From an uncultured Glaciecola sp. (lineage in GTDB: Bacteria; Pseudomonadota; Gammaproteobacteria; Enterobacterales; Alteromonadaceae), in contig CAKZLI010000059.1 in NCBI GenBank assembly GCA_937125395.1, positions 1,462 through 65,461 of the forward strand: DNA of 64,000 nucleotides, written 5' to 3'. The notes beneath the pieces were generated by a model. The model did not search any database, was not told the origin of the DNA, and was given only the letters and a program-made list of their open reading frames with translations. The position numbers were made by a program, and so were the translations under genes. Shown here piece by piece: positions 41,288 to 58,062 of this stretch (position 1 is its first letter; each line of letters starts with the position of its first letter).

Positions 41288-41363
41288 GCCTCGATAGCTC
41301 AGTTGGTAGAGCAGCGGATTGAAAATCCGCGTGTCCCTGGTTCGATCCCGGGTCGAGGCACCA
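41288..41363 (+). tRNA. pheV: tRNA-Phe (anticodon GAA)
   Basis: 76 nt: GCCTCGA-TA-GCTC-AGTTGGTA-GAGC-A-GCGGA-TTGAAAA-TCCGC-GTGTC-CCTGG-TTCGATC-CCGGG-TCGAGGC-ACCA. The cloverleaf folds by hand, CCA is encoded, and the sequence is close to E. coli tRNA-Phe. Confidence 0.97.
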
Positions 41364-41373
41364 TTATTCTAAG

Positions 41374-41406
41374 AGCCCTGAGCAGAAATGTTCGGGGCTT
41401 TTTTTA
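41374..41406 (+). terminator. Rho-independent terminator after tRNA-Phe
   Basis: The hairpin AGCCCTGAG-cagaaatg-TTCGGGGCT is followed by a TTTTTTTATTT run. Confidence 0.7.
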
Positions 41407-41503
41407 TTTCAGAACCGGTATTGATTCATTCGATTTTGATTGGGTAAGGCGATGAAGATAAGCTGGTAGTTTCGATGTCAATATACTAATGACAACTCAT
41501 TCT

Positions 41504-42058
41504 TCATTTGCATGCATCGAATACTTTTTTAATTGTTGATCTTGCATCTTGTAATGAAAATGATGATTTAGTGGTTCGGTTAGAATAATCGGTTAGTTGT
41601 ACCAAAACTTTCTTTTTTCCAGCCATGATATCTTGTATGAATTCGTGACCCATATCATTGAAGTATAGCCCAGTTTCAGCTGTTAACATTTTTGATTTAA
41701 CAGCCATTTTTTTATCTACTCGATACTGTATATGGCCGGTTGCAGATTCGCCAATAAATGCGCCTGTAGACACTCTCACTTTAAAAACACGCTCAGGTAA
41801 GCAGACAACCTGAATAAAACCTTTTAAATCCTCAGACAAAACCATTGCAAAATGCTTTTCGTCATCGGTAAAATCATCAACATTCTTCTCATAAGTCCAA
41901 TTAATTGGGCCTATTCTAATGTAATCTTTAATATCTTCTGGTAAAGCCATAATGAGATCTTTTTTCATCAGCAAATCATTAAAATTAATGACTTGTGCAC
42001 CCGAAAAAGAAGAGAATGAGAAAAGAAGAACGATTAAAACAAACTTAAACATAAACAC
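41504..42058 (-). CDS. Small secreted protein of unknown function (184 aa)
   Basis: The signal peptide is MFMFKFVLIVLLFSFSSFSGAQ. The mature part has two Cys residues (VVCLPE, DACK at the C-terminus). It is AT-rich like the neighbouring giant gene, and I recognise no family. Confidence 0.55.
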   Translation of the reverse strand: MFMFKFVLIVLLFSFSSFSGAQVINFNDLLMKKDLIMALPEDIKDYIRIGPINWTYEKNVDDFTDDEKHFAMVLSEDLKGFIQVVCLPERVFKVRVSTGAFIGESATGHIQYRVDKKMAVKSKMLTAETGLYFNDMGHEFIQDIMAGKKKVLVQLTDYSNRTTKSSFSLQDARSTIKKVFDACK

Positions 42059-42226
42059 CTTATTCTATTTATATAATATGTTGGAGATTTTTAATTATTT
42101 ATCAATGTTAAGGCACAGTGCCATAAAGGTTTGACAGTCGATATGAGAATCATTTTTTCTGATTTTTAATTTCGAAATGAATGCGTAATATAAGCGATTT
42201 CAAAGTATATTAAAATTATTGAATAG

Positions 42227-42348
42227 TAAGAATATTTCGTAAGAAAAAATCTTATTGAATTGGTATTTATTTTATTATTAACGTTAAGTAAGAATATTTC
42301 TTAGTTATATATATTATTTTCTTGAATGCTTGATAAGAATATTTGTTC
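42227..42348. promoter_or_regulatory. Three copies of a TAAGAA-TAT-TTCTTA dyad (candidate operator array) upstream of the giant lipoprotein gene
   Basis: 42227 TAAGAATATTTCGTA; 42289 TAAGAATATTTCTTA (perfect 6-bp arms with a 3-bp spacer); 42334 TAAGAATATTTGTTC. The 11-nt core TAAGAATATTT is identical in all three. Spacings are 62 and 45 bp. The last copy is 41 nt before the ATG at 42389. Confidence 0.5.
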
Positions 42349-42388
42349 TGTTATATTAATTTTTATAATTAGTTTAAATGGAATTAAC

Positions 42389-45300
42389 ATGTCGTCCAAT
42401 AAATTTCACCTTGTATTTAAATTTATATTCTCCAGTTTTTTTGCTTTATCACTTCTAGCATGTGGTGGTGGCAGCGGAAACAATGAGCCTTCACAGTCAA
42501 ATACTCCTCCACCTGTTGCGGTGCCACCAGCAGTAAGTACACCAACGAATAATGGTGATCTGGACACTTCTACATCTGCAGATAATTCATCTGAAACTAA
42601 CGCACCGAACTCTTCTGTGGTTATGGCTTACAGGTTAATAGATACAGTTGATAATTGTTTAAGTGGCGGAGTTGAAATTAAAACCGGTATTGATGATAAC
42701 AATAACAGCACGCTCGAGCCATCAGAAGTAGATAACATAGATGTTGTATGTAATGGCTCAAACGGCACAGACGGTTTAAATGGTTCGGACAGCTTAATTA
42801 ATGTAGTTAATGAACCTGCCGGAAACATATGCTCCAATAGTGGCATTCATATTAATGTTGGATTAGACATTAATTTTGATGAACAATTAAACTTAGATGA
42901 AATAACACAATCGGCGACTGTGTGCTTTCCAGCTGGAGATCAAATAGAACAAATTTCTTATGCGGCGGCAAAAATAAAAGGCAATGTTAGCAATATATTA
43001 AGAGCGTCTAAAACAAGCAACAAACAAAAACTAAGAAGAGATGAGTTGCTTGCAAGCAATGCAACAGTACTAATTACACCATCACCTATTGCAGCCAACG
43101 TAGATAGACAAAGTGAAGACACTGAGGGATTACTTACTCAACCTGTCGAAGCTGTCGTCGACGAATCAGGAAATTACGAAGTAATTGTGCCCGCTGGTGC
43201 AGATTATTCAATAGTAATGACAAATAGTGCCAACGGCACTGGTGCAAAAATAGATAATATTTCTGTTGAATCGGGTGAAACCAAAACACAAGATATTCCA
43301 TTATCAAGCCAATCAGCAACGGGTGGTGTGACAATGCAAATCGCAGAGCTGTTAACCGGTTTATTGCTCGATAACGCAATAGTTGAAGTCCTCGAAATTG
43401 CGGAACAAAAAACAACATTAGAGGATGGTGTTGTTGAGTTTACAAATTTACCAGCAGGTGATTATCATTTAACAATTAATCGTAGTGATTACGTAGGTAA
43501 ATACATTGCCTTTAACGTTGTTTCTGGTTTAGTGACGGATCTCGGTACGGCCGAATTAAACAATCAAAAAGGCTCAGCGGTAGGCCAGCTTTTTTCAGAT
43601 AGCATAGATGATTTGAGTAACATTATTGTTTTTGCTCGTGCTGCTGATGATAGTGTTTATTCTACTTTAACTAACGCGAGTGGTACTTTTACTTTTAATG
43701 CTCTACCTGTAGGCGAGGGTTACCGTTTTATCGTTGTTGCGAATATCCTCGACAGCGTGAAAAGCGAGGCTGTAACTGTCGTTAAAAATGAAACGGTGAT
43801 TGTAGATTCAATTCCGGTAACACCTAGAAAAGCGAATACAGGGAGTATCGCAGGTTACGTGAAATTCGCTGAAAGAGAAAACTCATTAGACCATGCTGGT
43901 ATTATCGTGTCTGTTGAAGGGACAGACCAAGAGGCAATCACATCGAAGGATGGTTCTTATATTATAAATGGGTTAACAGCCGGTAATTATTCGTTGAATT
44001 TCACCGAAGCAAATCATCAATCACAAAACCTTGCGATAGATGTGACAGTTGGCACATCGACTATTGTAGACACTATTGTAATTGGAAGTTTGAATGGGAA
44101 TATTTCTGGCAAAGTAATTGATAATAATGACGTTGCATTAGCCAACGTAAACCTTGTTATCTTTGAAACAGGGCAAACTACACTATCTGATAATAATGGT
44201 GATTTTATTTTCTCCGACCAACCAATAGGTTCATATACTGTTTTAGCGAGTACTGACGGATACTCTACTGAGGAAATTGAAATAAGTATTGTACAGGGTG
44301 AAACAACAGTATTAGAAAATATTATTCTTACTCCCTTCGTTTTTAGTGGCGTTGTTAATACCGGAGAGCAACGTGATGATCATAGCGGTGTGACCGTTAC
44401 TTTATCCGGTACCGGCCTTACTGAGTTAACTGCACTTGATGGTTCGTTTGCGTTTAATGGAGTCGAGCCTGGCAACTACCAATTGCAAGTTGCTAAAGCA
44501 GGTTTTCAATCTCAGGCGCTTGGGATTGTCATTTCTGAAAATAGTGTTGAGTTGGGCTATGTAATCAACTTGGAAGCATTAGTTGGAGTCGTTACAGGAC
44601 AGGTGTCTTTAGATAATCGTATTGATCACTCTGGCATAATGGTAACCTTAATAGGAACAGACTATTCTACTTTCACAGACAGTACAGGCAAATGGAGCCT
44701 TAAATTACCTTTAAGGAACTATAGTCAGGGCTTAAGTTATACAAAACCTTATTACAGTGAACTTATCAATGCGTCTACTTTGACTATTATTGAAAATGGT
44801 GAGTTTACTGTAACTTCTGCGCTTCTTATTCAGAATAATGCACAAATTACTTTTAATGTTGATGCAGTGAATACTTGTTCGGGTGATTTGGTTGTAACAG
44901 CATTGGGACTAAGCGGCGACGCGTTAGGATTTTCAGGTAATTTACAAGTAAGCTCAGAGAATACTATTGAGCAAGCGTTGCCTTTGGGCGAATATCAGCT
45001 ATCAACGACCTGTAGTGACAGTGGATGGGAATCAAATGTCGTTAATGTAGATTTAACTAATGCGCAAGATAGTTATCAACTCGACAATGTTAATTTACGT
45101 CAGAGCTTTTTAGTTATTAACGACGGAGCAGAATATACTAATGAACAGCAAATAGCCCTGGCTATCGGAAATACTGATGCTGTAGAAATGAAAATCGTTG
45201 ATGGTATTAATGACACTGGCTGGTTAGCGTTGCAAAATGACTATAATTATACCTTGTCTATTGGCAATGGCCTAAAGACTGTAACAGTATATTTTAAAGA

Positions 45301-48300
45301 CATTAATGGCGTTGAACTTTCATCAGTTAGTGACACTATTCAGCTAGATACTTTCTTAAATGTGGCTTACTTCAACCAAAGTGGTGCAAATACTCGTGGT
45401 GATATACTGCATTTGTCTTTGAGTTTGGCTCAAGAGCTCGGCGCAACCGTTACAGCGACTATTCCAGGTGTTGTTGAAGCGCTCCCTTTATTAGATAATG
45501 GTTTTGGTGGTGATCAAACTGCAAATGATGGTATCTATGAGCGTGATTTTTATATTGATACACCAATCGATATCAACGCACCTGTAAATGCCACAATAAC
45601 TGATTTGGCGGGCAATATTGCAAGCACTGTATCGGATACAAATTTGGTATTAAACACCGCACCGACCATAAAAAACTTAATCAATAGTTCTAATATTGTT
45701 GCTGGTGAAATGACTATAACGTTCACTACGGATGAGCCAGCAACGGCAACTATTTTATATGGCGATAGTCTTGCAAACCTCGCCAATACTATCGTGCTTA
45801 GCAGTAATCTAACTAAAAGCCACACTGTGCAACTAGATGGGCTATCTGCCAATAGCCTTACTTATTATCAATTGTCGGTAGCTGACAGCGCTAATAATAA
45901 AACAGAACTAACAGGGCAAGGCAAACTGGCGCCCGCACCTGTTGAAGATTTAGCTGCATATCCAGGAAGTAATGAAGTAGGACTTATTTGGAGCTCAAAT
46001 GAACAAGCGGCAGGTTATCGTATTTATCGGTCAAATGATGGCGGTAATATATTTACTTTGGTCAATGCAGATGCATTGATTATAGAGCGTTTTTATATTG
46101 ATACTTTAGCAACAAACGCTACCCAGTTTCAGTACTATATTACCGCTGTTGATGCTGACAATAATGAAAGTGAAAACAGTGATACTGTTTCGGTAACTCC
46201 ATTGGTCACACTCGCAGGACCTACTGAGATAGCGGGCGGGTTGATTGATACCAACACAGTTTGGTTAAAATCACGTTCTCCTTATAATATTTCTGCCAAT
46301 ATTAAAGTAAAAAAAGATATTGAATTATTATTGTTAGCCGGCACTGAAGTGGCGTTTGCCAATGCTAATGTCGGTATTACCTTAGCCGGCTCAATGTTGG
46401 CATTAGGGCAAGAGAATATGACAGTAAAAATTAGTGCTTTTGGAGCGGATGATACCAACAGTAATAATTATTCGAATGCGATTATTTATGAACAGGGTAA
46501 CAATACTCCCAGTGTATTTAACCACACTGAATTTAATTATATTAAAGCGTACTACGACTATGAAAACAGCTATGACAGACAAAATTATATAGTCCCACTG
46601 CAACTTAATGACGGCAGTCTTAATATCTTTAGTAATGGCGGTAACTCTGATTTCTATATTCAATCAGCAAACAATACTGATATAACATTGTCGGGCTGGG
46701 GCAACGGAGGTAATTCAAACTCAGCTAAAATTAACAGTGCTAACAATATTACTGCAACCAGTGCAGATTTTGATGCCATAGGCGGTATGCCTAGTACCAA
46801 TTACTTAAATGGCTTATTTATTCGTAATATTTCTAATTCTATATTTAATCGTATTTCACTTTATATGGATAATGGCGCAATAGATGACAGTGAATTTTTT
46901 GATAGTGAAATAAACTCTGTTAATACAATTAATAATAGTACGCTGACTAATAGTAAAGTTTTAGGGTACTCTTCGTTAAATGCTACTAACAACACCTTAG
47001 TTAATACACAGATTAATTTATCCGGTGATAATACTAAGTTAGTGCTTCACTACAGTGTCATTGATACTCTATCAACGGTTGCTGCTAAACGCTTAGACGT
47101 GTCACACAACTATTGGGATACAACCGACCTGACAGAAATTACCAATAAAACAGGTTACAGCCCAGATCAAAGTAAAAACACCCATTTATATCCGATAATT
47201 ACCAGCAGTGACTTATACCTGGCTGATTGGGATGGTGATACGATCCCTGATTATCTCGATTACGATAATGACAACGACGGTTATAGTGACTTGCAAGAAG
47301 ATTGGGAGTCAGATCCTTTGTATGGCAGCATATATAATCCACTAGATGCTGATTCGCATCCAACAACGGCTAAAGATAACGATATGGATGGTTTATCAGA
47401 TGCTGACGATTTAGATGATGATAACGACGGCTTAATTGATACAGAAGAGAGCATTCGGCTAACTGATAAGTTTTTAGCTGACAGTGATGGTGATGGTGTA
47501 AACGACGGCAATGAAGTTAATTACGCGTACAATCCCTTAGATAAAGCTAACTTTCCATTAATGGGTAACATCATTGGTAAAACCATAGATAACTCTAACG
47601 TGAATAGCCAAGGTGCCGTCTATTTAGCTGGCGAAGAGCAAACTAATGACATGATGAGTTATACATCTGTTACTCCGGTTAACTTAACCAATGTGACGGT
47701 TGCCCCTGGTACGTCATTAATGATTGAAAAAGACACCACTGTGTATTTCAATGATAGTTATATTATCGGTGATGCGGCTAATGTCATTACTATCCGTTCA
47801 ACCGGGGCAGGTAATGGTAGTTTATATTTAAACAATACCACATTAAGTTACGCTAATATTAAAGGCGCTATTTCTACCTCATTTAATCGTGGCTCTGTAA
47901 TTGATCACATTGATATAAATGTGAATCAGTTAAATAACAGTGGTGTTATGAGCTATAGCGTTATTCAAAATAACAATGGTCCTTTTTATAATAATCATCT
48001 AATAAGTCGTAGTTATGTTAGTGGAAATTATTTTTATAATCAAAATGATGGCTCTGTAATTAATAGTTATATTTCTCTAATTGATCAATGGAGAGACGTT
48101 TATAATAGTGGGGAGTTATCTAGTGTTTATGTCGGTTCAAGGGTATATCAGCAAACTAACGGTACCATTTCCAATGCTGTTATTAGTAGCTTGCATTCAG
48201 AACAAGCAAACACAGTTATTAATTCAGATATTAAATTAACTTCAACGACGGTTAATGCATTATTTGACAATACCTTTATTCAAGGCCAAAACGGTAATGA

Positions 48301-51300
48301 TGCGTACACCGGCTATGGTGAGCCTGCTGACCAAATTGGAGATGGTGTCGCTGAAACGATATTTACACTCAATGAAAGTGATTATACGGTTGATGGTATC
48401 AGAAACCCTCGTGCTACAGCTAACTATCCTGACGTAATCTTTAAGCCCTATCTAGCTACTGCTAATATTTGGTCACCTGAAGATGTGGGTGCATGGTGGG
48501 ATATGAACAGTCCGAATACCTTTGCCGATAAAGATCCGTCAACCACAATGGGAACCTTGTCCGGACAAATTAAACTTGTTGGGTTTACAAACCATTCCGG
48601 CGTAACTGTTAGCGTGATCGATACTTCTTTGAGTACCACGACAGATGCGGAGGGTAATTGGTCAATTCGGTTACCAGCTCGTGATTACACTGCGGGTATT
48701 CGCTTTACCAAAGCACATATGCAAACCATTACAAAAGATCGATCTTATTCGGTATCCGCGCTACAAGATACCTCCCTAGGCTTGCTTAATATGGCACAGT
48801 TAACCGCCAGTGTAAGTGGTGTGGTCGTTATTGACGAAGCTTCAGACTATACCCAAGCGACGATTACGGCTAATAAAAATGGCCAAACAACTATTATCAA
48901 TCCTAGCGCAGCCGGTGACTTTATCTTTAAAGACCTACCTCTAGGTGATTACCGTTTTGCTGTGACTTACCCCAATGGTAGTTGGGAGACGGTAACGCGG
49001 CTCTTAACACTTGATATGGGTACTACTGAACATAACTTACCTTTAACGAGAGTGCGTAACAGTTTTGTGTATATTAACGAGGGAGCACTTTATACCAATT
49101 CAGCTGAGGTTGATTTAGCAATTACGAATGCCAATGCGACGAATATGGTGATTACAGAAGATAACATCGCCTCAGTCTCACAAAGTTTCAATACATCCCA
49201 AACGATAACCTTGAGTGGCGGTGATGGTGAAAAAACGGTAAAGATAGATTTTACAGATGAGAATGGCAATGCGCTCACTCAAGCCATTAGCACTATCACG
49301 CTTGACACCACTGTATCATTAACAAGTTTAACCTTATCTAACGTGAATAGTTTAGGTGATACATTGCACATGGCGCTAACGGCAAATGAAGCTGGTGGCA
49401 TGGCAACGGTGTCTATACCGGGTTTGTTTACTGATTTACCATTATATGATGATGGTACAAACGGCGACATGGTTGCAGACGATGGTATATATGAAACAGA
49501 TTACCTAATCAACTCTGCAGAAGATATTAATGCAGTAGCAACCGCAACATTTGTCGATAGAGCAGTAAATACTGACACTATTACTAGTATGACTACTATG
49601 GATATTGCCACTTCACCAACGATAAGTGATTTGTTAGTACAATCGAACGAAGGCAAGTTAATCATAAGTTTTGCTACCAACGAGCCAGTAATGGCTACTG
49701 TAAACTATGGCAGCAGCGCGGATAATTTAGATCAATCTTTGGATGTATCATCTACTGAAGCCCTGAACCACAGTATTGAGCTATCTGCAACCGCCGGACA
49801 AAATCTGTACTTCTCCATAATAACCGATGATGGCGTTACTACTGTAACGACTATAAGTAGTTCAGGTTTATTGGCTAATCCAAGTTTAGCTGGGCTTAGT
49901 TCGTCTGCGGGAGATGAAGAAATTGGCCTAGTATGGACAACACAGGCAGAAGCATCCGGTTACCGTATATACCGTAGCATCGACTCAAACACCTTTGGTT
50001 TGATTGATACTATATCAGCTGAAACACCCTATTATGTTGATGACAGTGTTTATAACGACCAAGCATATCATTATCGTGTGACTTGGTTAGACGAAAACGG
50101 GGTTGAAAGCGACCAAAGCCGTTCAGTAACTGCAATGGCATCGATGAACAATGCCGGTGGTACAGAAATTAATGGTGGCGTTATAGCTAATAATCAAATT
50201 TGGTTAGCATCACGCTCGCCTTATATTATTACAGCAAATATGTTGGTGAAAGCCTCTGCAACATTGAGTTTAATGCCAGGAGCTGAAATTGAATTTAACG
50301 GTGCTAAACGTCATATTATGGTGCAAGGGAATATTATGGCCTATGGTACGAGTGATGCTGTAGTTAAGATATCTACTGACCCATTATACAATACCAGTAC
50401 AGGTGAAAATGGTGGTCAATCAGCGATTATTTATGACATAGGAAATAACACGGCCAGTGAATTTATTCATACAGAGTTAAATTATATAGAAGTGTATAAA
50501 AACTACACTAATGTCGGTGATAGACGTTATAACCCAGTGCCCGTAACGTTTGATCATAGTGTGATTAACAGTTTTTATGGTAATAATTCGAGCTTTGCCA
50601 TAAGCACATTAAAAAACAGTAACTATAACGAATATAGTTATGGTGTTTATTACTACTCTACAGCACGTATTAGGAACACTAATAATACTGTGTTTAACGC
50701 TTTAGATTTATATACTAAAGAGCCTCGTGAAATTAATCAATATATTGCAAGAGTTGACCAAGCGGTTAACACAACCTTTAATAATGGTTACTTTGATTTT
50801 CAAAATGGTAGCATCGATAGCAGTGTCTTTAATCAAGCCAAAGCTTATCGAGCCGCAGAGATTAAAAATAGCCGCTTTACTGACAGTAGCATTACAGGTA
50901 GCAATTCATTGCGACTAACGGATAGCCAGTTAGTTAATTCTACAGTGTCCTTAACAGGTGATAATACTCGTTTAACCATGCACTATAGTCAACTTGATAC
51001 AGACTCAACAGTTAGTGCCAAGCTGTTAGATATTGCTTATAACTATTGGGGAAGCACTGATTTAGATACTATTGCGCTGCAATCAGGTTATAGCCCTAAC
51101 ATAGAAAAAAATACGCATTTGTATCCAATTATATCCGGTTATGATTTGTATAATGCCGATTGGGATGAAGATGGCGTACCTGACTACCTGGATTATGACA
51201 ACGATAATGATGGATACAGTGACTTGCAAGAGGATTGGGAGTCTGACCCAACATATGGTGGCATATTTAATCCTTTAGATAATAGCTCTTTCCCTGTAGG

Positions 51301-52429
51301 GGCTACTGATAACGATATGGACGGGTTAAGCGATAATGTCGACCAAGATGATGACAACGACGGCTTAAGTGATACGGATGAAGACAGTTACTCAACAGAC
51401 CCATTTCTCGCGGATAGTGATGGTGATGGTGTCAATGACGGTGATGAAGTGCGTTATGGCTATGACTCGCTTGATAAAACTAATTTTCCAATGATGGGTA
51501 ATATTACCGGAAAGACCATTGATAACAGTAATATAAATGATGACGGTGTGGTCTATATAGTCGGGTACGAGGTCTCGGGCATTACACAAGCAGTGCAGTT
51601 ACGCAATGTTACAGTAAGCGCAGGCACTTCTTTAATGTTAGAAAAAGATACGAATGTTAATTTTTATAACAGTGTGCTCGCAGGAAATGCCAATAGTGTT
51701 GTTATTGTGCGATCAACGGGTGCTGGTAATGGGGCATTTAATTTACATAGCAGCAAAGCGAGCTTTATTAATGTCAAACTGACACAAAGTTATAGTTTTG
51801 ATAATGAGACTGTGATTGAGCGTTCCGATATGTCACTTGGTCAAGGATCTAATTATGGTACTATTCAAAACAGCTACATTACTCTTAACGGTTATTTGGG
51901 TAATAAAAGTACTGGCAAGTTAATACATAATTATTTAACAGGTTCGAGCTACGTTAATAATAATGGAAACTTAGTAGGCAGTTATGTTGATACTAATGGA
52001 GCCTTGTATAACGATGATAATGTGAGTAATAGCGTCATAGTTAATCAAATATATATGAAAACGGGCTCAAGTTTAGTCGGTAGTATAGCTAATCAGATAA
52101 GTAGTGGCGGGATTAGTAGAGTTATCAAGTCTGATGTTGGACTAAGAAGTCGTAGTCTAACTTTATTTTTTGATAACAGTTACTTAGAAATGTTGGATGA
52201 TGGTTCAACTTATGATGGTTTTGGTAGCCCTGTCGACCAATTAGGTGATGGTGTTGCAGAAACTATTTTTACTATGGGTAGTGTTGACTATACAGTTGAC
52301 GGTATTAATAACCCAAGAGGCACTAAAAACTTCCCTAATGGTGCTGCCGATCTTTGGGAACCCTCTGGTGTTGGGGCATTGTGGAATAAAGATGCGGCCG
52401 ATTTAACGGCATTCCCTGAACCGTTATAA
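42389..52429 (+). CDS. Giant (3,346-aa) predicted surface/outer-membrane lipoprotein. It is a multi-domain adhesin-like protein with beta-sandwich repeats, FN3-like domains, parallel beta-helices and Asp-rich Ca-binding blocks
   Basis: It is one uninterrupted frame. The ATG at 42389 gives MSSNKFHLVFKFIFSSFFALSLLAC|GGGSG (signal peptide plus lipobox, Cys codon at 42461). The track's upstream ATG (42326) lies in the operator-like region. Domains are recognised by motif; see findings. It is followed by a strong terminator. Confidence 0.9.
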   Translation: MSSNKFHLVFKFIFSSFFALSLLACGGGSGNNEPSQSNTPPPVAVPPAVSTPTNNGDLDTSTSADNSSETNAPNSSVVMAYRLIDTVDNCLSGGVEIKTGIDDNNNSTLEPSEVDNIDVVCNGSNGTDGLNGSDSLINVVNEPAGNICSNSGIHINVGLDINFDEQLNLDEITQSATVCFPAGDQIEQISYAAAKIKGNVSNILRASKTSNKQKLRRDELLASNATVLITPSPIAANVDRQSEDTEGLLTQPVEAVVDESGNYEVIVPAGADYSIVMTNSANGTGAKIDNISVESGETKTQDIPLSSQSATGGVTMQIAELLTGLLLDNAIVEVLEIAEQKTTLEDGVVEFTNLPAGDYHLTINRSDYVGKYIAFNVVSGLVTDLGTAELNNQKGSAVGQLFSDSIDDLSNIIVFARAADDSVYSTLTNASGTFTFNALPVGEGYRFIVVANILDSVKSEAVTVVKNETVIVDSIPVTPRKANTGSIAGYVKFAERENSLDHAGIIVSVEGTDQEAITSKDGSYIINGLTAGNYSLNFTEANHQSQNLAIDVTVGTSTIVDTIVIGSLNGNISGKVIDNNDVALANVNLVIFETGQTTLSDNNGDFIFSDQPIGSYTVLASTDGYSTEEIEISIVQGETTVLENIILTPFVFSGVVNTGEQRDDHSGVTVTLSGTGLTELTALDGSFAFNGVEPGNYQLQVAKAGFQSQALGIVISENSVELGYVINLEALVGVVTGQVSLDNRIDHSGIMVTLIGTDYSTFTDSTGKWSLKLPLRNYSQGLSYTKPYYSELINASTLTIIENGEFTVTSALLIQNNAQITFNVDAVNTCSGDLVVTALGLSGDALGFSGNLQVSSENTIEQALPLGEYQLSTTCSDSGWESNVVNVDLTNAQDSYQLDNVNLRQSFLVINDGAEYTNEQQIALAIGNTDAVEMKIVDGINDTGWLALQNDYNYTLSIGNGLKTVTVYFKDINGVELSSVSDTIQLDTFLNVAYFNQSGANTRGDILHLSLSLAQELGATVTATIPGVVEALPLLDNGFGGDQTANDGIYERDFYIDTPIDINAPVNATITDLAGNIASTVSDTNLVLNTAPTIKNLINSSNIVAGEMTITFTTDEPATATILYGDSLANLANTIVLSSNLTKSHTVQLDGLSANSLTYYQLSVADSANNKTELTGQGKLAPAPVEDLAAYPGSNEVGLIWSSNEQAAGYRIYRSNDGGNIFTLVNADALIIERFYIDTLATNATQFQYYITAVDADNNESENSDTVSVTPLVTLAGPTEIAGGLIDTNTVWLKSRSPYNISANIKVKKDIELLLLAGTEVAFANANVGITLAGSMLALGQENMTVKISAFGADDTNSNNYSNAIIYEQGNNTPSVFNHTEFNYIKAYYDYENSYDRQNYIVPLQLNDGSLNIFSNGGNSDFYIQSANNTDITLSGWGNGGNSNSAKINSANNITATSADFDAIGGMPSTNYLNGLFIRNISNSIFNRISLYMDNGAIDDSEFFDSEINSVNTINNSTLTNSKVLGYSSLNATNNTLVNTQINLSGDNTKLVLHYSVIDTLSTVAAKRLDVSHNYWDTTDLTEITNKTGYSPDQSKNTHLYPIITSSDLYLADWDGDTIPDYLDYDNDNDGYSDLQEDWESDPLYGSIYNPLDADSHPTTAKDNDMDGLSDADDLDDDNDGLIDTEESIRLTDKFLADSDGDGVNDGNEVNYAYNPLDKANFPLMGNIIGKTIDNSNVNSQGAVYLAGEEQTNDMMSYTSVTPVNLTNVTVAPGTSLMIEKDTTVYFNDSYIIGDAANVITIRSTGAGNGSLYLNNTTLSYANIKGAISTSFNRGSVIDHIDINVNQLNNSGVMSYSVIQNNNGPFYNNHLISRSYVSGNYFYNQNDGSVINSYISLIDQWRDVYNSGELSSVYVGSRVYQQTNGTISNAVISSLHSEQANTVINSDIKLTSTTVNALFDNTFIQGQNGNDAYTGYGEPADQIGDGVAETIFTLNESDYTVDGIRNPRATANYPDVIFKPYLATANIWSPEDVGAWWDMNSPNTFADKDPSTTMGTLSGQIKLVGFTNHSGVTVSVIDTSLSTTTDAEGNWSIRLPARDYTAGIRFTKAHMQTITKDRSYSVSALQDTSLGLLNMAQLTASVSGVVVIDEASDYTQATITANKNGQTTIINPSAAGDFIFKDLPLGDYRFAVTYPNGSWETVTRLLTLDMGTTEHNLPLTRVRNSFVYINEGALYTNSAEVDLAITNANATNMVITEDNIASVSQSFNTSQTITLSGGDGEKTVKIDFTDENGNALTQAISTITLDTTVSLTSLTLSNVNSLGDTLHMALTANEAGGMATVSIPGLFTDLPLYDDGTNGDMVADDGIYETDYLINSAEDINAVATATFVDRAVNTDTITSMTTMDIATSPTISDLLVQSNEGKLIISFATNEPVMATVNYGSSADNLDQSLDVSSTEALNHSIELSATAGQNLYFSIITDDGVTTVTTISSSGLLANPSLAGLSSSAGDEEIGLVWTTQAEASGYRIYRSIDSNTFGLIDTISAETPYYVDDSVYNDQAYHYRVTWLDENGVESDQSRSVTAMASMNNAGGTEINGGVIANNQIWLASRSPYIITANMLVKASATLSLMPGAEIEFNGAKRHIMVQGNIMAYGTSDAVVKISTDPLYNTSTGENGGQSAIIYDIGNNTASEFIHTELNYIEVYKNYTNVGDRRYNPVPVTFDHSVINSFYGNNSSFAISTLKNSNYNEYSYGVYYYSTARIRNTNNTVFNALDLYTKEPREINQYIARVDQAVNTTFNNGYFDFQNGSIDSSVFNQAKAYRAAEIKNSRFTDSSITGSNSLRLTDSQLVNSTVSLTGDNTRLTMHYSQLDTDSTVSAKLLDIAYNYWGSTDLDTIALQSGYSPNIEKNTHLYPIISGYDLYNADWDEDGVPDYLDYDNDNDGYSDLQEDWESDPTYGGIFNPLDNSSFPVGATDNDMDGLSDNVDQDDDNDGLSDTDEDSYSTDPFLADSDGDGVNDGDEVRYGYDSLDKTNFPMMGNITGKTIDNSNINDDGVVYIVGYEVSGITQAVQLRNVTVSAGTSLMLEKDTNVNFYNSVLAGNANSVVIVRSTGAGNGAFNLHSSKASFINVKLTQSYSFDNETVIERSDMSLGQGSNYGTIQNSYITLNGYLGNKSTGKLIHNYLTGSSYVNNNGNLVGSYVDTNGALYNDDNVSNSVIVNQIYMKTGSSLVGSIANQISSGGISRVIKSDVGLRSRSLTLFFDNSYLEMLDDGSTYDGFGSPVDQLGDGVAETIFTMGSVDYTVDGINNPRGTKNFPNGAADLWEPSGVGALWNKDAADLTAFPEPL
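44582..48547 (+). repeat. Intragenic super-module, copy 1 (~1,322 codons)
   Basis: It starts VGVVTGQVSLDNRIDHSGIMVTL and ends ...GDGVAETIFTLNESDYTVDGIRNPR...WSPEDVGAWWDMNSPNTFADKDPSTT. Its domain order is collinear with copy 2. Confidence 0.85.
48548..52426 (+). repeat. Intragenic super-module, copy 2 (~1,293 codons), ending at the protein C-terminus
   Basis: It starts MGTLSGQIKLVGFTNHSGVTVSV and ends ...GDGVAETIFTMGSVDYTVDGINNPR...WEPSGVGALWNKDAADLTAFPEPL. The order of sub-domains is the same as in copy 1. Confidence 0.85.
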
Positions 52430-52465
52430 AATGCCAATTTAAAGGCGTAGTTAAATGAAATCTGT

Positions 52466-52498
52466 AAAAGGGTTAGGGTGTTGCCTAACCCTTTTTTT
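52466..52498. terminator. Bidirectional rho-independent terminator between the giant gene and phoU
   Basis: AAAA-GGGTTAGG-gtgttg-CCTAACCC-TTTTTTT, between convergent genes. Confidence 0.85.
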
Positions 52499-52531
52499 AG
52501 TTCAAGAAAACATCTCTCATTAACTATTAGA

Positions 52532-53266
52532 CTATTGCCCCAGTTTGCTCGCTATTTCTTTAATAGATGTATGTCGCACATCTAAGCCTTTAACCAAATA
52601 AATAATATGTTCGGCAATGCTACGGCTATGGTTCCCCATTCTTTCTAGTGCACGTAATGCAGTGATGATATTCATTGCTCTTTTGATAGACCTTGGATCT
52701 TCCATCATATAAGTCACGATCACACGCATTGCACTTTTAAATTCACGGTCGACCTTTTTATCCGCTTTTGCGACTGCCAGTGCTTGTGTAACGTCAAGGC
52801 GATTAAATGCGTCTAAGACTGAGTTTAGCATCGTATGCACTAGCTCACCCATGTGCCTAACTTCTTCATAACCACCCGGTGCAGCCCCTTTTTTAGCTAA
52901 TGTGAGGGACATTTTTGCTACTTTTTCGGCTTCATCCCCAATATGTTCAAGATCACGAATGATATTTGTCGCTGACAAAATCATGCGTAAATCACCTGCT
53001 GCTGGTTGTCGACATGCCAACACTTCGACACACAGTTCATCTAAACGCACTTCACGCACATTGACATCGTCTTCAATCGCGACTACTTTTTTTGCCAACT
53101 CTTTATCAACGTTGACGATTGACTCGACTGCATCCGCAATTTGTTGTTCAACCACTTCGCCCATTGCAAGAACTTGGTTTTTGATTGTTTCTAACTCTTC
53201 GTTAAAGCTTTGTGAGATATGTTTATCTAGATTTGTGTTATCCACGGTATATTCCTTCTGTGCCAT
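52532..53266 (-). CDS. phoU: Phosphate signalling complex protein PhoU
   Basis: 244 aa with two PhoU repeats (LEHIGDEAEKVAK; LERMGNHSRSIAEHI). It is the last gene of the pst operon. Confidence 0.93.
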   Translation of the reverse strand: MAQKEYTVDNTNLDKHISQSFNEELETIKNQVLAMGEVVEQQIADAVESIVNVDKELAKKVVAIEDDVNVREVRLDELCVEVLACRQPAAGDLRMILSATNIIRDLEHIGDEAEKVAKMSLTLAKKGAAPGGYEEVRHMGELVHTMLNSVLDAFNRLDVTQALAVAKADKKVDREFKSAMRVIVTYMMEDPRSIKRAMNIITALRALERMGNHSRSIAEHIIYLVKGLDVRHTSIKEIASKLGQ

Positions 53267-53307
53267 TATAAGCTTAGGTCATTACGTTAATTAGTAGTGT
53301 GGTTAAT

Positions 53308-54135
53308 TTAACCAAAACGACCCGTTATATAGGCTTCTGTTAATTCATGCTCAGGGTTAGTAAATACCTTTTTGGTGTCATTCACTTCGATTAATTTGCC
53401 CATATGAAAATAAGCAGTGCGCTGTGATACCCGAGCTGCTTGCTGCATTGAGTGGGTCACTATAGCAATGGTGAAGTTCTGGCTTAGTTCAGCAATTAGT
53501 TCTTCAATTTTTGCAGTAGCGATAGGATCAAGTGCAGAACAGGGTTCATCCATCAAAATAACTTCTGGACCAACCGCAATCGTTCGAGCGATACATAAAC
53601 GTTGCTGTTGACCACCAGATAGACCTGTTCCAGCTGCGGTTAATCGATCTTTCACTTCATTCCACAGACCGGCTCTGACCAAGCTTGTTTCTACAATTTC
53701 ATCTAAATCCGTCTTGCTCGACGCTAACCCATGAACCTTGGGGCCATAGGCGACGTTATCATAGATAGACTTAGGAAACGGATTGGGCTTTTGAAACACA
53801 ATACCGACTCTTGCGCGCAGTGCCACTACATCTTGATTGGGATGATAAATATCATCCTCCTCGAGTCGAAAATCGCCCTCAATACGACACGAATCAATCG
53901 TGTCATTCATACGATTCATGCATCGTAAAAAAGTAGATTTACCACAACCTGAAGGCCCAATCATCGCGACGACTTCATTTTTACCAATATCTAAACTGAC
54001 ATCATGGATCGCTTGCTTATCAGCATAAAATACATTGACGTTACGCATCGACATTTTTGCATGTTCAGAAAAAGCATTTCCGACAGTAATTAAATTAGTG
54101 ATGTCTTGAGATATTTGAGGATCGTTTTCGTTCAT
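53308..54135 (-). CDS. pstB: Phosphate ABC transporter ATP-binding protein PstB
   Basis: [34 protein letters not shown], and the C-terminal YITGRFG. The start is placed at the ATG at 54133-54135, preceded by AGGAGA; the track start at 54156 is TTG and would overlap pstA. Confidence 0.95.
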
Positions 54136-54149
54136 TATTATTCTCCTAT

Positions 54150-55466
54150 TTACCAACGTCGCTCAAGGCGATTACGTAGCAATATTGCAAAAGTATTCAT
54201 TGTTATTAAAAACGCGAGTAGCACCATAATCGCCGCCGATGTACGTTCAATAAACGCACGCTCTGGACTGTCTGACCAAAGGAAAATCTGTACTGGTAAT
54301 ACGGTTGAAGGGTCTGATATACCGCCCGGTATGTCGACAATAAATGCCACCATGCCGATCATTAACAGCGGTGCGGTTTCACCTAATGCTTGAGCAAAAC
54401 CAATAATCGCACCAGTCAACATGCCAGGCATTGAAAGTGGCAGTACATGATGTAATATTACTTGCATTTTTGAAGCACCTAAACCCAGCGCGGCATCACG
54501 GATTGACGGAGGCACAGATTTAATCGCAGCGCGACTTGAAATAATAATGGTCGGTAACGTCATTAATGACAATACCAGTCCACCAACGAGTGGTAATGAA
54601 CGATGCATTTCAAAATAACCAATAAAAATAGCTAATCCAAGCAACCCGAATATAATTGAAGGAACCGCCGCAAGATTATTAATATTGACTTCAATGAAGT
54701 CCGTTAATTTATTTTTGGGTGCGTACTCTTCAAGATAGACTGCTGCTGCCACGCCGATTGGAAATGACAATATAATCGTGACCAATAAGGTGAAAAGTGA
54801 ACCTGCCATTGCACCTAAGATGCCTGCTTGCTCCGGCTCACGTGAATCTCCTGAAGTAAAAAACGTAGTATTAAAGCGTTTTTTAATCTGTTGATTGGTA
54901 ATCCATGTTTCAATCCATGCCACTTGCTTGGGCACTAATCTACCCACAAAGGCATCGGCTTTATCATCGCCTCGGCTTTTGTAATAAGTGTCGACATCAT
55001 CATCAGCCAGTAGCCATACTCCTACCGTTTGATTAAGTAACGCCGGGTTATCTTCTAGAGATTCACGCAGGGTGAAACTAGCACCATTACTTACAAGTCC
55101 ATATAGATTACGGCGCTCTTTGCGGCTTTTGGCATCGGTAAATTGTTGGCGCAACGATGCTTTTACCAACGCGGAATAATCAGCTATCGCTATTTGCTGT
55201 GGATTATTGATATCATCAATCTCTAATGTATCGGCGTCATAAGTCACCTCAAGATACACATATGTTTGTAAAAAAGCAGAGTGGCCTTTACTCACAATGT
55301 CTGTGAATAAAATAACCAAACAGGCTAATCCAAATAAAATAGCAGCAATACCATACGCCTTAAAGCGTTTTTCAGCTCTGTAACGCTTGGCTAAATTCTT
55401 ATTCACTAAGTCCATTGTACTTGGTGTTTGTGCATTTGCTGCTGGTTGTGAAGATAAGTTTGTCAT
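54150..55466 (-). CDS. pstA: Phosphate ABC transporter permease PstA (long form)
   Basis: 438 aa, multi-TM, with the C-terminal permease core [14 protein letters not shown] typical of PstA. Its operon position supports the call. Confidence 0.88.
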
Positions 55467-55471
55467 GTTGT

Positions 55472-56860: not shown

Positions 56861-56912
56861 ATTGTCTCTATCATTTGCACAATCGAATTAAACAATTGCA
56901 CCCCTAGCAAAA

Positions 56913-58010: not shown

Positions 58011-58062
58011 ATTCGCTTCCACAGGTTAATGATTAAACTCATGGGAAGTATATGGGTTGAAT

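What the first reader, a model, noticed from the sequence alone, without database searches (positions are those of the whole stretch)
42389..52429. 3,346-residue lipoprotein with an unusual composite architecture (candidate novel surface system)
This is one intact 10-kb frame.

Reading the translation from the N-terminus:
- signal peptide plus lipobox (LLAC|GGGSG)
- a Pro-rich linker
- two Cys-bracketed ~33-aa repeats
- about eight ~80-aa beta-sandwich repeats of the carboxypeptidase-regulatory/Cna-B kind (G-x-[IV]-x-G-x-[IV]...[DS]-x-x-G-x-[FWY]-x-[FIL]...G-x-Y)

Then comes a ~1,300-aa super-module that appears twice. Each copy contains:
- two more beta-sandwiches
- an 'IN[DE]GA-x-YTN ... G-x-KTV-x-[IV]-x-F-x-D-x-NG' domain
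- a domain carrying D-[DN]-G-x-x-GD-x-x-A-[DN]-DGIYE (reminiscent of what I recall as the 'choice-of-anchor X' motif)
- two FN3-like domains (GYRIYRS...)
- an Asn-rich right-handed beta-helix ending in NYW[DG]-x-TDL
- a 112-aa thrombospondin-type-3-like Asp-rich block
- a second Asn/Ser-rich helix-like stretch
- a conserved tail (GDGVAETIFT..YTVDGI.NPR..VGA.W)

I see no catalytic motif, no RTX nonapeptides, no autotransporter barrel and no PEP-CTERM/T9SS/LPXTG tail. Beta-helix plus Ca-binding repeats on a lipid anchor suggests a Ca-dependent glycan- or particle-binding adhesin, or a polysaccharide-active surface protein. That function is inference only.
Basis: partly seen in the sequence, partly recalled or inferred. 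Interest (0 to 1): 0.8.

Follow-up and report, generated by a model that had tools for sequence, protein, structure and literature searches.

The report
Giant calcium-binding lipoprotein, likely adhesin
This is a real, intact gene for a 356-kDa lipid-anchored protein from a small, unstudied family in marine bacteria, built from known domain types in a fixed order, and it most likely acts as a long calcium-stiffened attachment fibre rather than an enzyme.

Summary
Window 42389-52429 (+) is one uninterrupted 3,346-codon frame. It encodes a signal peptide with lipobox, two DUF7151 Cys-bracketed repeats, a stalk of CarboxypepD_reg beta-sandwiches, and a ~1,300-aa cassette present twice (40% identity).

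Each cassette has a fixed order: 2 beta-sandwiches, 2 Ig-like domains (the second carries the choice-of-anchor X motif), 2 FN3-like domains, beta-helix 1, an Asp-rich TSP3-like block, beta-helix 2 and a conserved tail.

The architecture is not unique. An exhaustive HMM search found about 30 clusters with the same order, including Vibrio fortis, Sulfurimonas aquatica, Maribrevibacterium, Psychrosphaera and Thalassotalea. Of 18 homologues with complete N-termini, 17 have a lipobox. All carry only generic database names, and I found no literature on them.

It is a stand-alone gene. The five genomic contexts examined share no neighbour, so "surface system" is not supported.

Across 32 cassette copies the beta-helices keep no conserved charged residue apart from one Asp in beta-helix 2. 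The Asp-rich block keeps 40 of 119 positions. This argues against an enzyme.

Best reading (confidence about 0.5): a Ca2+-rigidified, lipid-anchored adhesin or aggregation fibre. Surface exposure and ligand are untested. It is a new variant of a known kind, of moderate interest.

The parts
42330..42357 (+). Sigma-70-like promoter candidate (TTGATA-16-TATATT with a TG extension), ~30 nt upstream of ATG 42389
   Evidence: This is a consensus match only: 2 sites were found where 6.5 are expected by chance.
42389..52429 (+). Complete CDS: 3,346 aa; the mature protein is 3,321 aa, 356 kDa, pI 4.05
42389..42463 (+). Signal peptide plus lipobox L-L-A-C (Cys25), followed by GGGSG
   Evidence: A lipobox is present in 17 of 18 homologues with a complete N-terminus.
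42464..42649 (+). Low-complexity Pro/Ser/Thr/Asn tether (residues 26-87)
   Evidence: read directly from the sequence
42650..42928 (+). Two DUF7151 repeats, each closed by a Cys pair (C90-C121, C148-C179). Each contains an EF-hand-like loop: DDNNNSTLEPSE and DINFDEQLNLDE.
   Evidence: E=1.6e-23
42929..44581 (+). Stalk (residues 181-731): 5-6 CarboxypepD_reg / transthyretin-like beta-sandwiches
44582..45100 (+). Cassette 1: beta-sandwiches S1 and S2
45104..45655 (+). Cassette 1: two Ig-like domains. The first is the 'INDGA...KTV' domain. The second carries the choice-of-anchor X motif GDQTANDGIYE and the motif D-x-AGN.
45656..46207 (+). Cassette 1: two FN3-like domains
   Evidence: (sub-threshold). 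The second domain has low pLDDT.
46211..47203 (+). Cassette 1: beta-helix 1. Only its ends are conserved: the N-terminal cap GPT..WL.SRSPY and the C-terminal NYW.
47204..47560 (+). Cassette 1: Asp-rich TSP3-like block with five DxDxDG-type motifs. It is the most conserved part of the family.
47564..48307 (+). Cassette 1: beta-helix 2 (Asn/Ser-rich)
48311..48547 (+). Cassette 1: conserved tail (GxGxPxDxxGDG..T.F...VDGI.NPR...W.P..VG..W), which also serves as the link between the two cassettes
48548..52426 (+). Cassette 2, with the same ten domains in the same order: S1-S2 48551-49057; Ig-like pair 49061-49609; FN3 pair 49610-50146; beta-helix 1 50153-51136; TSP3-like block 51137-51493; beta-helix 2 51497-52213; tail 52217-52426
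52466..52499 (+). Intrinsic-terminator-like hairpin followed by a T-run, ~40 nt after the stop codon
   Evidence: read directly from the sequence
41288..41363 (+). tRNA-Phe (GAA), marking the upstream edge of the low-GC3 stretch that holds orf184 and the giant gene
41504..42058 (-). orf184: a divergently oriented ORF for a 184-aa protein with an N-terminal signal-peptide-like hydrophobic stretch (by eye). It has no Pfam match, its exact sequence is not in the protein collection, and its GC3 is low (0.28), like the giant gene. Any link to the giant gene is unproven.

Best explanation
**What it is.** A stand-alone gene encodes a very acidic 356-kDa outer-membrane lipoprotein. It belongs to an uncharacterised but architecturally fixed family found in marine Gammaproteobacteria and Campylobacterota.

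**How it most likely works.** I read it as a non-enzymatic, Ca2+-stiffened fibre for adhesion or aggregation.

*Shown here:*
- A Sec signal plus lipobox with Cys25, followed by a Gly/Pro/Ser/Thr tether.
- Two disulfide-capable DUF7151 repeats with EF-hand-like loops, then a beta-sandwich stalk.
- Two copies of a 10-domain cassette. Each is a string of six Ig/FN3-type sandwiches leading to beta-helix 1, five DxDxDG motifs, beta-helix 2 and a cap/tail.
- The Asp arrays and the tail are the conserved parts. The beta-helix surfaces vary freely and lack conserved catalytic residues.
- The cassette duplication predates the split of this lineage from those of P0058, P0059 and P0061.

*Inferred:*
- The N-terminal triacyl-Cys holds the protein in the outer membrane. 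Residue +2 is Gly, so Lol export is expected rather than inner-membrane retention.
- The protein reaches the cell surface by an unidentified route, for example type II secretion.
- Seawater Ca2+ orders the Asp-rich blocks and locks the two beta-helices of each cassette into a rigid unit.
- The chain extends on the order of 100 nm.
- The variable beta-helix faces bind a ligand: either particle or algal surface material, or the same protein on neighbouring cells as in Ag43.
For: **Intact frame and canonical lipobox:**

**The lipobox is a family trait:** 17 of 18 complete N-termini have one.

**The domain order is fixed** in about 29 proteins, drawn from an exhaustive search of 1.84 billion representatives.

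**Structure prediction:**
- The cassette's N-terminal half is six beta-sandwiches (pLDDT 79). Foldseek matches it to giant Ig/FN3 chains: the GhpA grappling hook, contactins, fibronectin, the Sap S-layer protein and the Bacteroides surface lipoprotein SGBP-B.
- The C-terminal half is two beta-solenoids separated by a low-confidence Asp-rich segment. The best Foldseek hit is the self-associating adhesin Ag43, E=6.7e-6.

**Conservation over 32 cassette copies:**
- TSP block: 40 of 119 positions are at least 90% conserved, 26 of them acidic.
- Beta-helix 1: only the two caps are conserved.
- Beta-helix 2: only D1947 among charged residues.

**Calcium binding:**
- Homologues pass Pfam TSP3_bac.
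- The family profile weakly matches thrombospondin-2 type-3 repeats and BamM.
- BamM is a surface lipoprotein. Its Asp-rich domain has no regular secondary structure and is ordered by seven Ca2+ ions (PMC12611786). That matches the low pLDDT seen here.

**Other points:**
- Mature pI is 4.05, with 413 acidic against 143 basic residues.
- Cassette 1 is closest to cassette 1, and cassette 2 to cassette 2, across species, so both copies have been kept for a long time.
- No partner genes are conserved.
Against: - There is no experimental evidence for any family member.
- Surface exposure is not shown. The default Lol route leaves lipoproteins on the periplasmic face, and no exporter is encoded nearby.
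- No domain of known ligand specificity (CBM, lectin, VWA) was detected.
- The beta-helix fold is also the fold of many polysaccharide lyases and hydrolases, and PL6 alginate lyases appear among the Foldseek hits.
- Foldseek TM-scores are low (at most 0.3), so only the fold class is established.
- TSP3_bac is below threshold in this protein itself.
- The structure alignments were shallow (10 and 5 sequences).
Confidence: 0.5

Rival explanations
1. A cell-surface polysaccharide-active enzyme. One or both beta-helices would be a Ca2+-dependent lyase, hydrolase or epimerase acting on algal or capsular polysaccharide, held away from the cell by the stalk.
For: - Foldseek lists the two-beta-helix PL6 alginate lyases: AlyGC (5gkd) at E=5e-4 and 8bwk.
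- It also lists phage tailspikes, a polygalacturonase, the RbmB lyase and the AlgG epimerase.
- Ca2+-binding motifs sit next to the helices.
- The host is related to Glaciecola, and a hybrid two-component sensor of the type that often controls glycan use lies ~6 kb downstream.
Against: - No Lys, Arg, His or Glu is conserved at 90% or more in either beta-helix across 32 cassette copies. Only cap motifs and D1947 are conserved.
- No lyase or glycoside-hydrolase Pfam family was detected.
- A family profile finds no beta-helix enzyme in the PDB by sequence.
- TM-scores are at most 0.24.
- There is no polysaccharide-utilisation context at any of the five loci.
Confidence: 0.12
2. A periplasmic or inner-leaflet envelope scaffold that is not exposed on the surface. 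It would be a Ca2+-binding structural protein tethered to the inner face of the outer membrane.
For: - Lol delivery to the inner leaflet is the default fate for proteobacterial lipoproteins (established knowledge).
- No dedicated exporter is encoded nearby.
Against: - The size argues against it: 3,321 residues in about 22 tandem domains, estimated at roughly 100 nm if extended, against a periplasm a few tens of nanometres wide (my estimate).
- Every structural match is an extracellular protein: adhesins, S-layer proteins, surface lipoproteins, tailspikes.
- BamM, the solved bacterial protein that the Asp-rich block weakly matches, is surface-exposed.
Confidence: 0.15
3. A component of a protective cell coat or matrix. 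It would be an S-layer-like or capsule-organising protein that binds the cell's own exopolysaccharide, rather than an adhesin for foreign surfaces.
For: - Foldseek matches include the Bacillus anthracis Sap S-layer protein.
- The protein is extremely acidic and rich in Ca2+ sites, as in Ca2+-dependent S-layers.
- The choice-of-anchor X motif is found in cell-surface proteins with varied anchors (and what I know of the NCBIfam naming scheme).
Against: - There is no evidence of high expression or self-assembly.
- A 356-kDa, two-cassette fibre is unlike known lattice-forming S-layer proteins.
- The family is patchy and rare, at about 30 clusters. That fits an accessory trait better than a core coat component.
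Confidence: 0.1
4. An artefact or pseudogene: a mis-assembled repeat, or a frame that is broken in the real genome.
For: - In Psychrosphaera algicola the homologue is split into five ORFs.
- The exact protein is not on record in the gene-position index.
- Metagenome contigs of the same strain end inside the gene.
Against: - The frame of 3,346 codons has no stop (probability about 1e-98).
- It aligns colinearly with P0058.
- The two cassettes are only 40% identical at protein level, with at most 70-74% DNA identity over short stretches. Assembly collapse is therefore unlikely.
- Homologues are intact in two large NCBI chromosome records.
- In the P. algicola record the neighbouring topoisomerase gene is also fragmented, which points to assembly errors in that record.
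Confidence: 0.02

Closest known systems
Giant RTX adhesins secreted by type I systems (Marinomonas primoryensis MpIBP, Pseudomonas LapA, Salmonella SiiE)
   Same: - They are giant, very acidic proteins.
- They have a long extender of tandem Ig-like beta-sandwiches stiffened by Ca2+, with ligand-binding modules towards the far end.
- They are found in marine and cold-water Gammaproteobacteria.
- A profile of the two Ig-like domains gives its only PDB hit on SiiE BIg domains, sharing the D-x-AGN motif. The hit is not significant (E=0.46).
   Different: - There are no RTX nonapeptides and no C-terminal type I secretion signal.
- There is no N-terminal retention plug.
- No type I secretion genes lie next to the gene.
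- Here the anchor is an N-terminal lipobox.
- The distal modules here are paired beta-helices joined by TSP3-like repeats.
Antigen 43 and other self-associating autotransporters
   Same: It is the best structural match for the beta-helices (7ko9, E=6.7e-6). In both cases the beta-helix is non-enzymatic. Ag43 uses its helix for cell-to-cell association.
   Different: There is no autotransporter beta-barrel. TM-scores are about 0.2 and sequence identity about 9%. The anchoring chemistry and topology differ.
Bacteroidota surface lipoproteins: SGBP-B (SusE/F-like) and BamM
   Same: - All have an N-terminal lipid anchor.
- SGBP-B is a chain of Ig-like domains (6e57, E=6.9e-7).
- BamM has an Asp-rich domain with no regular secondary structure, ordered by seven Ca2+ ions. 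It shows weak sequence resemblance to the block here (NCBIfam BamM E=2.1e-5; PDB 9n2d_D E=0.37).
   Different: - The phylum is different.
- There is no SusC/D or BAM context.
- The BamM model scores 23.7 bits against a cutoff of 315, so this protein is not a BamM.
- This protein is about ten times larger.
Thrombospondin type-3 repeats (thrombospondin-2, COMP) and Pfam TSP3_bac
   Same: The DxDxDGxxDxxD arrays are shared. The family profile matches thrombospondin-2 (1yo8) at E=0.043. Homologues pass the TSP3_bac threshold.
   Different: The window protein scores below the TSP3_bac threshold (15.8 bits against 25). The block contains no cysteines, whereas eukaryotic type-3 repeats are disulfide-linked. 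Here the block sits between two beta-helices.
PL6 alginate lyases with two beta-helix domains (AlyGC)
   Same: They have two consecutive right-handed beta-helices, depend on Ca2+, and come from marine bacteria.
   Different: The catalytic Lys/Arg and the Ca2+ site inside the helix are not conserved here. Sequence identity is about 10% and TM-score about 0.17.
GhpA grappling-hook protein of Aureispira
   Same: It is the top Foldseek match for the string of Ig-like domains (9flp, 9flw; E about 1e-9). It is also a giant extended surface filament.
   Different: The resemblance is at fold level only, with 12-17% identity. As far as I recall, GhpA is a type IX secretion substrate that forms multimeric hooks. 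This protein has no T9SS C-terminal domain.

Membership tests
Bacterial lipoprotein (Lgt/Lsp/Lnt substrate) | An N-terminal signal peptide ending in a lipobox [LVI][ASTVI][GAS]C | tested here: met
   MSSNKFHLVFKFIFSSFFALSLLAC, with Cys25. The feature is conserved in 17 of 18 homologues with complete N-termini.
Bacterial lipoprotein (Lgt/Lsp/Lnt substrate) | Actual acylation of the Cys and cleavage by signal peptidase II | not testable with these tools
   This needs palmitate labelling, globomycin treatment or mass spectrometry.
Pfam CarboxypepD_reg (PF13620) | HMM score above the gathering threshold | tested here: met
   181.8 bits against a cutoff of 32.3, in 7 stretches.
Pfam DUF7151 (PF23657) | HMM score above the gathering threshold | tested here: met
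   72-83 bits against a cutoff of 27.2, in 2 stretches.
NCBIfam choice-of-anchor X domain (NF041940) | HMM score above the curated cutoff | tested here: met
   37.7 bits against a cutoff of 25, in 2 stretches, one per cassette.
Pfam TSP3_bac (PF18884), bacterial thrombospondin type-3 repeat | HMM score above the gathering threshold | tested here: not met
   15.8 bits against a cutoff of 25 for the window segment. Homologues P0078 and P0061 pass at 40.8 and 44.9 bits. Five DxDxDG-type motifs per block are visible in the sequence.
Fibronectin type III (Pfam fn3) | HMM match to fn3 | tested here: not met
   There is no fn3 hit. The only hits are sub-threshold: Pur_ac_phosph_N at 21 bits against 30, and GH85_C. 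The fold-level match to FN3 arrays is strong.
Right-handed parallel beta-helix families (Pfam Beta_helix, NosD, pectate lyase) | HMM match to one of these families | tested here: not met
   No Pfam family matches either helix segment. The fold class is supported by AlphaFold2 and Foldseek.
RTX / type I-secreted giant adhesins | C-terminal RTX nonapeptide repeats and secretion signal, with adjacent type I secretion genes | tested here: not met
   There is no HemolysinCabind hit. NCBIfam Ca_tandemer scores 17 bits against a cutoff of 50. The neighbours are mutY-yggX-tRNA-Phe on one side and phoU-pst on the other.
Autotransporter (type V) adhesins such as Ag43 | A C-terminal beta-barrel translocator domain | tested here: not met
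   No autotransporter domain is present. The protein ends in the conserved tail ...FPEPL.
PL6 polysaccharide lyase | A conserved catalytic Lys/Arg pair and a Ca2+ site within the beta-helix | tested here: not met
   No Lys, Arg or His is conserved at 90% or more in either helix across 32 copies. There is no sequence match to PL6 structures.
BamM (NCBIfam NF053691) | Equivalog HMM score above the cutoff, with a PPIase-fold N-terminal domain | tested here: not met
   23.7 bits against a cutoff of 315. The match covers only the Asp-rich stretch.
The uncharacterised lipoprotein family defined here (P0058, P0059, P0062, P0078 and others) | Domain order: lipobox, then DUF7151 and CarboxypepD_reg repeats, then the cassette {S1-S2-Ig-Ig(chX)-FN3-FN3-BH1-TSP3-BH2-tail} | tested here: met
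   Per-domain HMMs built from the window protein recover the same order in about 29 proteins. The closest full-length relative is 46.5% identical over 3,158 columns.

The most novel reading that the evidence does not exclude
This family would be a distinct class of giant Gram-negative adhesins. The defining difference is that they are held by an N-terminal lipid anchor, not by a type I retention plug or a type V barrel.

If so, a 356-kDa lipoprotein must cross the outer membrane by a route not yet described for cargo of this size. The conserved unit of beta-helix, five Ca2+ motifs and a second beta-helix would be a Ca2+-set recognition module. Its freely varying helix faces would determine which particles, algal surfaces or kin cells the bacterium sticks to.
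Probability: 0.25. Interest if true: 0.65.

Novelty: new variant of a known kind. Interest (0 to 1): 0.4.

Why it matters
Giant surface proteins decide whether marine heterotrophs live free or attached to particles and algae. That choice shapes carbon turnover in the sea.

This family is found in several orders of Gammaproteobacteria and in Campylobacterota. It combines a lipid anchor with a conserved 1,300-aa cassette that no one has studied.

If it is surface-exposed, it would add a third way of anchoring giant adhesins, beside type I and type V secretion. It would also raise the question of how so large a lipoprotein leaves the periplasm. The pairing of two beta-helices through a TSP3-like Ca2+ block is a new structural arrangement.

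Cultivable carriers exist (Vibrio fortis, Maribrevibacterium harenarium, Sulfurimonas aquatica), so the questions can be tested. Equally, all the parts are familiar domain types, and nothing here overturns current understanding.

Tried and rejected
- **Whole-protein homologue search.** It timed out, so I searched with the 779-aa C-terminal half of cassette 1 instead.
- **Exact look-up of the giant protein.** It is not on record from either possible start codon, so I could not obtain an independent full-length copy.
- **Foldseek with the two-domain beta-helix model.** It returned only fold-class matches with TM-scores at or below 0.24. The model could not be cropped to search each domain separately.
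- **Family profiles against PDB sequences.** Nothing was found for either beta-helix or the tail. The Asp-rich block gave only weak hits.
- **Genomic-island test.**
  - No repeat of the tRNA-Phe 3' end is present in the window, and I noticed no integrase among the ORFs I scanned.
  - What remains is tRNA adjacency and low GC3 (0.30 and 0.28 against 0.34-0.45 in neighbours). That is suggestive only.
- **Riboswitch or leader upstream.** Rfam found only the tRNA.
- **Literature.**
  - There were no papers on DUF7151, and I found none on this architecture.
  - None of the 15 listed papers mentioning "choice-of-anchor" (33 hold the term) appeared, from title and abstract, to concern the X type.
- **Ice-binding adhesin idea.** Considered because relatives come from cold-water genera and beta-solenoids can bind ice. 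Rejected as a main hypothesis for two reasons:
  - The helices keep no regular conserved Thr/Asn ladder.
  - The family also occurs in Vibrio fortis and Sulfurimonas.
- **Multi-gene "system".** Rejected, because no neighbour is shared across the five loci examined.


Full report
**1. The observation**

The window has one ORF from 42326 to 52429 on the + strand. Translated from ATG 42389 it gives 3,346 residues with no stop. At the gene's base composition, a frame of that length with no stop has a probability of about 1e-98.

ATG 42389 is the credible start. It produces MSSNKFHLVFKFIFSSFFALSLLAC|GGGSG, a normal lipoprotein signal with Cys25. The upstream ATG at 42326 would add 21 residues. It also lies upstream of the only sigma-70-like site in the region (42330-42357), although that site is a consensus match no better than chance. 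A hairpin followed by a T-run comes about 40 nt after the stop.

- Two 32-aa Cys-bracketed repeats match Pfam DUF7151 (E=1.6e-23).
- CarboxypepD_reg matches at E=2.8e-54 in seven stretches.
- Residues 732-2050 and 2054-3345 are 40% identical over 1,334 columns.

Two corrections are needed. First, the stalk ahead of the first cassette has 5-6 sandwiches rather than eight. Second, fn3, beta-helix and TSP3 do not reach Pfam thresholds in this protein. Those three labels rest on predicted structure and on homologues.

**2. Anatomy from structure prediction**

*C-terminal half of cassette 1.* I predicted residues 1275-2053 from an alignment of 10 sequences. The mean pLDDT was 72.
- The model has two beta-solenoids, with most blocks at pLDDT 80-95.
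- They are separated by about 130 low-confidence residues, which are the Asp-rich block.
- Foldseek against the PDB returned only right-handed beta-helix proteins: Ag43 (E=6.7e-6), two-domain PL6 alginate lyases (E=5e-4), tailspikes, and the Hap and IgA1-protease passenger domains.
- TM-scores were at or below 0.24, so only the fold class is established.

*N-terminal half of the cassette.* I predicted residues 732-1278 from 5 sequences, with a mean pLDDT of 79.
- It is a string of six beta-sandwiches. The last one has low confidence.
- It matches chains of Ig/FN3 domains: the GhpA grappling hook, contactins, fibronectin, the Sap S-layer protein and the Bacteroides surface lipoprotein SGBP-B.
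- A 24-sequence profile of the two middle domains found only SiiE BIg domains in the PDB. The hit was not significant (E=0.46) but shares the D-x-AGN motif.

*Bulk properties.* The mature protein is 356 kDa with pI 4.05, and has 413 acidic against 143 basic residues.

**3. The family**

A word-indexed search with the C-terminal half gave only eight true relatives, all fragments or single cassettes. An exhaustive profile search of 1.84 billion cluster representatives found about 30 clusters that match the whole 778-position profile. Many of these proteins are 1,700-3,800 aa long.

I built per-domain HMMs from the window protein. They recover one fixed order in all of these proteins:
- signal peptide and lipobox;
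- zero to three DUF7151 repeats;
- three to eight CarboxypepD_reg sandwiches;
- the cassette S1-S2-Ig-Ig(chX)-FN3-FN3-BH1-TSP3-BH2-tail, once or twice;
- in a Vibrio-type subgroup, an extra 650-900-aa C-terminal extension.

Seventeen of 18 complete N-termini carry a lipobox.

Named carriers are Sulfurimonas aquatica, Maribrevibacterium harenarium, Vibrio fortis, Psychrosphaera algicola and a Thalassotalea MAG. There is also a Campylobacterota MAG. Database names are generic: hypothetical protein, carboxypeptidase regulatory-like domain-containing protein, or fibronectin type-III domain-containing protein.

The window organism is related to Glaciecola sp. HTCC2999, because its yggX falls in the same 90% cluster. 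The closest full-length relative, P0058, is 46.5% identical.

Cassette 1 is closest to cassette 1 of other species, and cassette 2 to cassette 2:
- The window's cassette 1 is 47% identical to cassette 1 of P0058 but 43% to its cassette 2.
- The window's cassette 2 is 50% identical to cassette 2 of P0058 and 43% to its cassette 1.
- P0059 and P0061 show the same pattern.

The duplication is therefore old, and both copies have been kept.

**4. Context**

Upstream lie glgA, two methyltransferase genes, mutY, yggX, tRNA-Phe and a divergent 184-aa ORF with no known relatives. Downstream lies phoU-pstBACS. The rest of the window is housekeeping.

Homologues sit in unrelated surroundings:
- between purL and a DUF3332 gene in Vibrio fortis;
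- among housekeeping genes in Sulfurimonas aquatica;
- next to an S8 peptidase and a MoxR/VWA/BatD cluster in an unclassified bacterium;
- near a transposase-associated gene in P. algicola.

No neighbour recurs. This is a self-contained gene, not a multi-gene system.

The giant gene and orf184 have lower GC3 (0.30 and 0.28) than their neighbours (0.34-0.45), and they directly follow tRNA-Phe. Together with the patchy cross-phylum distribution, this hints at horizontal acquisition. However, there is no att-like repeat, and I noticed no integrase among the ORFs I scanned.

**5. What it most likely does**

The decisive computation is conservation across 32 cassette copies:
- The Asp-rich block keeps 40 of 119 positions at 90% or more. 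Twenty-six are acidic, arranged as five DxDxDG-type motifs.
- The tail keeps 12 of 73 positions.
- Beta-helix 1 (331 aa) keeps only its N-terminal cap (GPT..WL.SRSPY) and its C-terminal NYW.
- Beta-helix 2 (250 aa) keeps a single charged residue, D1947.

An enzyme would keep its catalytic residues, and these helices keep none. That weakens the polysaccharide-lyase or hydrolase reading, despite the PL6 fold hits. The constrained parts are the calcium sites and the junctions. The helix surfaces are free to vary, as expected for binding faces.

The Asp-rich block is a TSP3-type Ca2+ module on the following evidence:
- Homologues pass Pfam TSP3_bac.
- The family profile weakly matches thrombospondin-2 type-3 repeats (E=0.043) and BamM.
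- BamM of Flavobacterium johnsoniae is a surface lipoprotein. Its C-terminal domain has no regular secondary structure and is ordered by seven calcium ions (PMC12611786). That is exactly what the low-pLDDT, helix-poor model suggests here.

Putting this together, I read the protein as a lipid-anchored, Ca2+-rigidified fibre. A beta-sandwich stalk presents two double-beta-helix binding units for attachment to particles or algal surfaces, or for Ag43-like cell-to-cell association.

What is shown: the signal and lipobox, the domain folds and their order, the conservation pattern, and the stand-alone context.

What is inferred: acylation, Lol sorting (Gly at +2), export across the outer membrane, calcium binding, an extended length on the order of 100 nm, and the ligand.

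I put this reading at about 0.5.

**6. Rivals**
- A surface enzyme, about 0.12. The fold and the marine setting favour it. The conservation pattern and the absence of any lyase or hydrolase model argue against it.
- A periplasmic scaffold, about 0.15. Default lipoprotein sorting favours it. The protein's size and the uniformly extracellular structural analogues argue against it.
- A coat or matrix protein, about 0.10.
- An artefact or pseudogene, about 0.02. The long clean frame, colinear homologues and intact genes in two large chromosome records argue against it. The fragmented P. algicola copy sits beside another fragmented gene, which points to assembly error in that record.

**7. Comparison with known systems**

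*What it works like.* The closest functional analogues are the giant Ca2+-dependent adhesins MpIBP, LapA and SiiE, and the self-associating beta-helix adhesin Ag43.

*What it is not a member of.*
- RTX adhesins: there are no RTX repeats and no type I secretion genes.
- Autotransporters: there is no barrel.
- PL6 lyases: there are no catalytic residues.
- BamM: 23.7 bits against a cutoff of 315.

*What it is a member of.* It meets the CarboxypepD_reg, DUF7151 and choice-of-anchor X models. It also fits the uncharacterised family defined above by its fixed domain order.

**8. Novelty and score**

Every part is a familiar domain type, and giant repetitive surface proteins are common in marine bacteria.

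What is new is the combination: an N-terminal lipid anchor on a protein of this size, and a strictly conserved 10-domain cassette in which a TSP3-like calcium block joins two beta-helices. The family is also completely unstudied.

I rate it a new variant of a known kind, with interest 0.4. The most novel reading still open is a lipid-anchored class of giant adhesins that need an undescribed export route. I give that a probability of about 0.25, and it would merit about 0.65 if true.

Noticed in passing
window 41288-42388: tRNA-Phe is followed by a divergent 184-aa ORF (41504-42058, minus strand) with an N-terminal signal-peptide-like hydrophobic stretch (by eye). It has no Pfam match, and its exact sequence is absent from the 15-billion-protein collection. 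Its GC3 (0.28) is as low as the giant gene's (0.30), against 0.34-0.45 for neighbours. This could be a small acquired islet between tRNA-Phe and phoU. No att repeat is present, and I noticed no integrase among the ORFs I scanned.
   Followed up: partly
window 58116-62156 (- strand): A 1,346-aa hybrid two-component sensor lies just beyond the pst operon. Its domains are Reg_prop beta-propeller, HisKA, HATPase, a receiver domain and an AraC-type HTH. This architecture typically regulates glycan utilisation. No link to the giant gene was shown.
   Followed up: no
L044 (Psychrosphaera algicola JAQOMS010000002.1), locus coordinates ~1648-11872: The homologue is split into five consecutive ORFs of 214, 154, 1549, 796 and 623 aa. 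The adjacent topoisomerase gene is split into three. This suggests frameshift errors in that assembly rather than a true pseudogene.
   Followed up: partly
P0078-P0082 and P0086 (e.g. Vibrio fortis, L045 10001-18775): One subgroup of the family has a single cassette followed by an extra 650-900-aa C-terminal extension that ends in a conserved 'VWL..RP' motif. The one member scanned, P0078, has no significant Pfam match there. This extension is absent from the window protein.
   Followed up: no
L046 (Sulfurimonas aquatica CP046072.1), locus coordinates 27601-31538: About 6 kb downstream of the homologue, a FecR/TbpB_B_D-domain gene precedes another giant gene (3,709 aa, with Laminin_G_3 domains). 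This may be a second large surface protein at that locus.
   Followed up: no
window 42389-42928 (residues 102-113 and 160-171): Each DUF7151 repeat contains a 12-residue loop that fits the EF-hand pattern DxNxN......E. Homologues have near-canonical versions such as DTNGNGVLDPNE. This suggests that this domain of unknown function is a disulfide-closed Ca2+-binding mini-domain.
   Followed up: partly
window 51545-58339: Contigs 99.9-100% identical to this stretch occur in several independent marine metagenome samples (SRR1873745, ERR2843943, ERZ650163, ERZ928126); four of the five end inside the 3' part of the giant gene (the fifth stops between phoU and the gene). The organism therefore recurs in marine samples, and short-read assemblers tend to break at this gene.
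   Followed up: partly
window 1963-3984 (+ strand): A methyl-accepting chemotaxis protein with an NIT (nitrate/nitrite-sensing) domain. It is unrelated to the finding.
   Followed up: no
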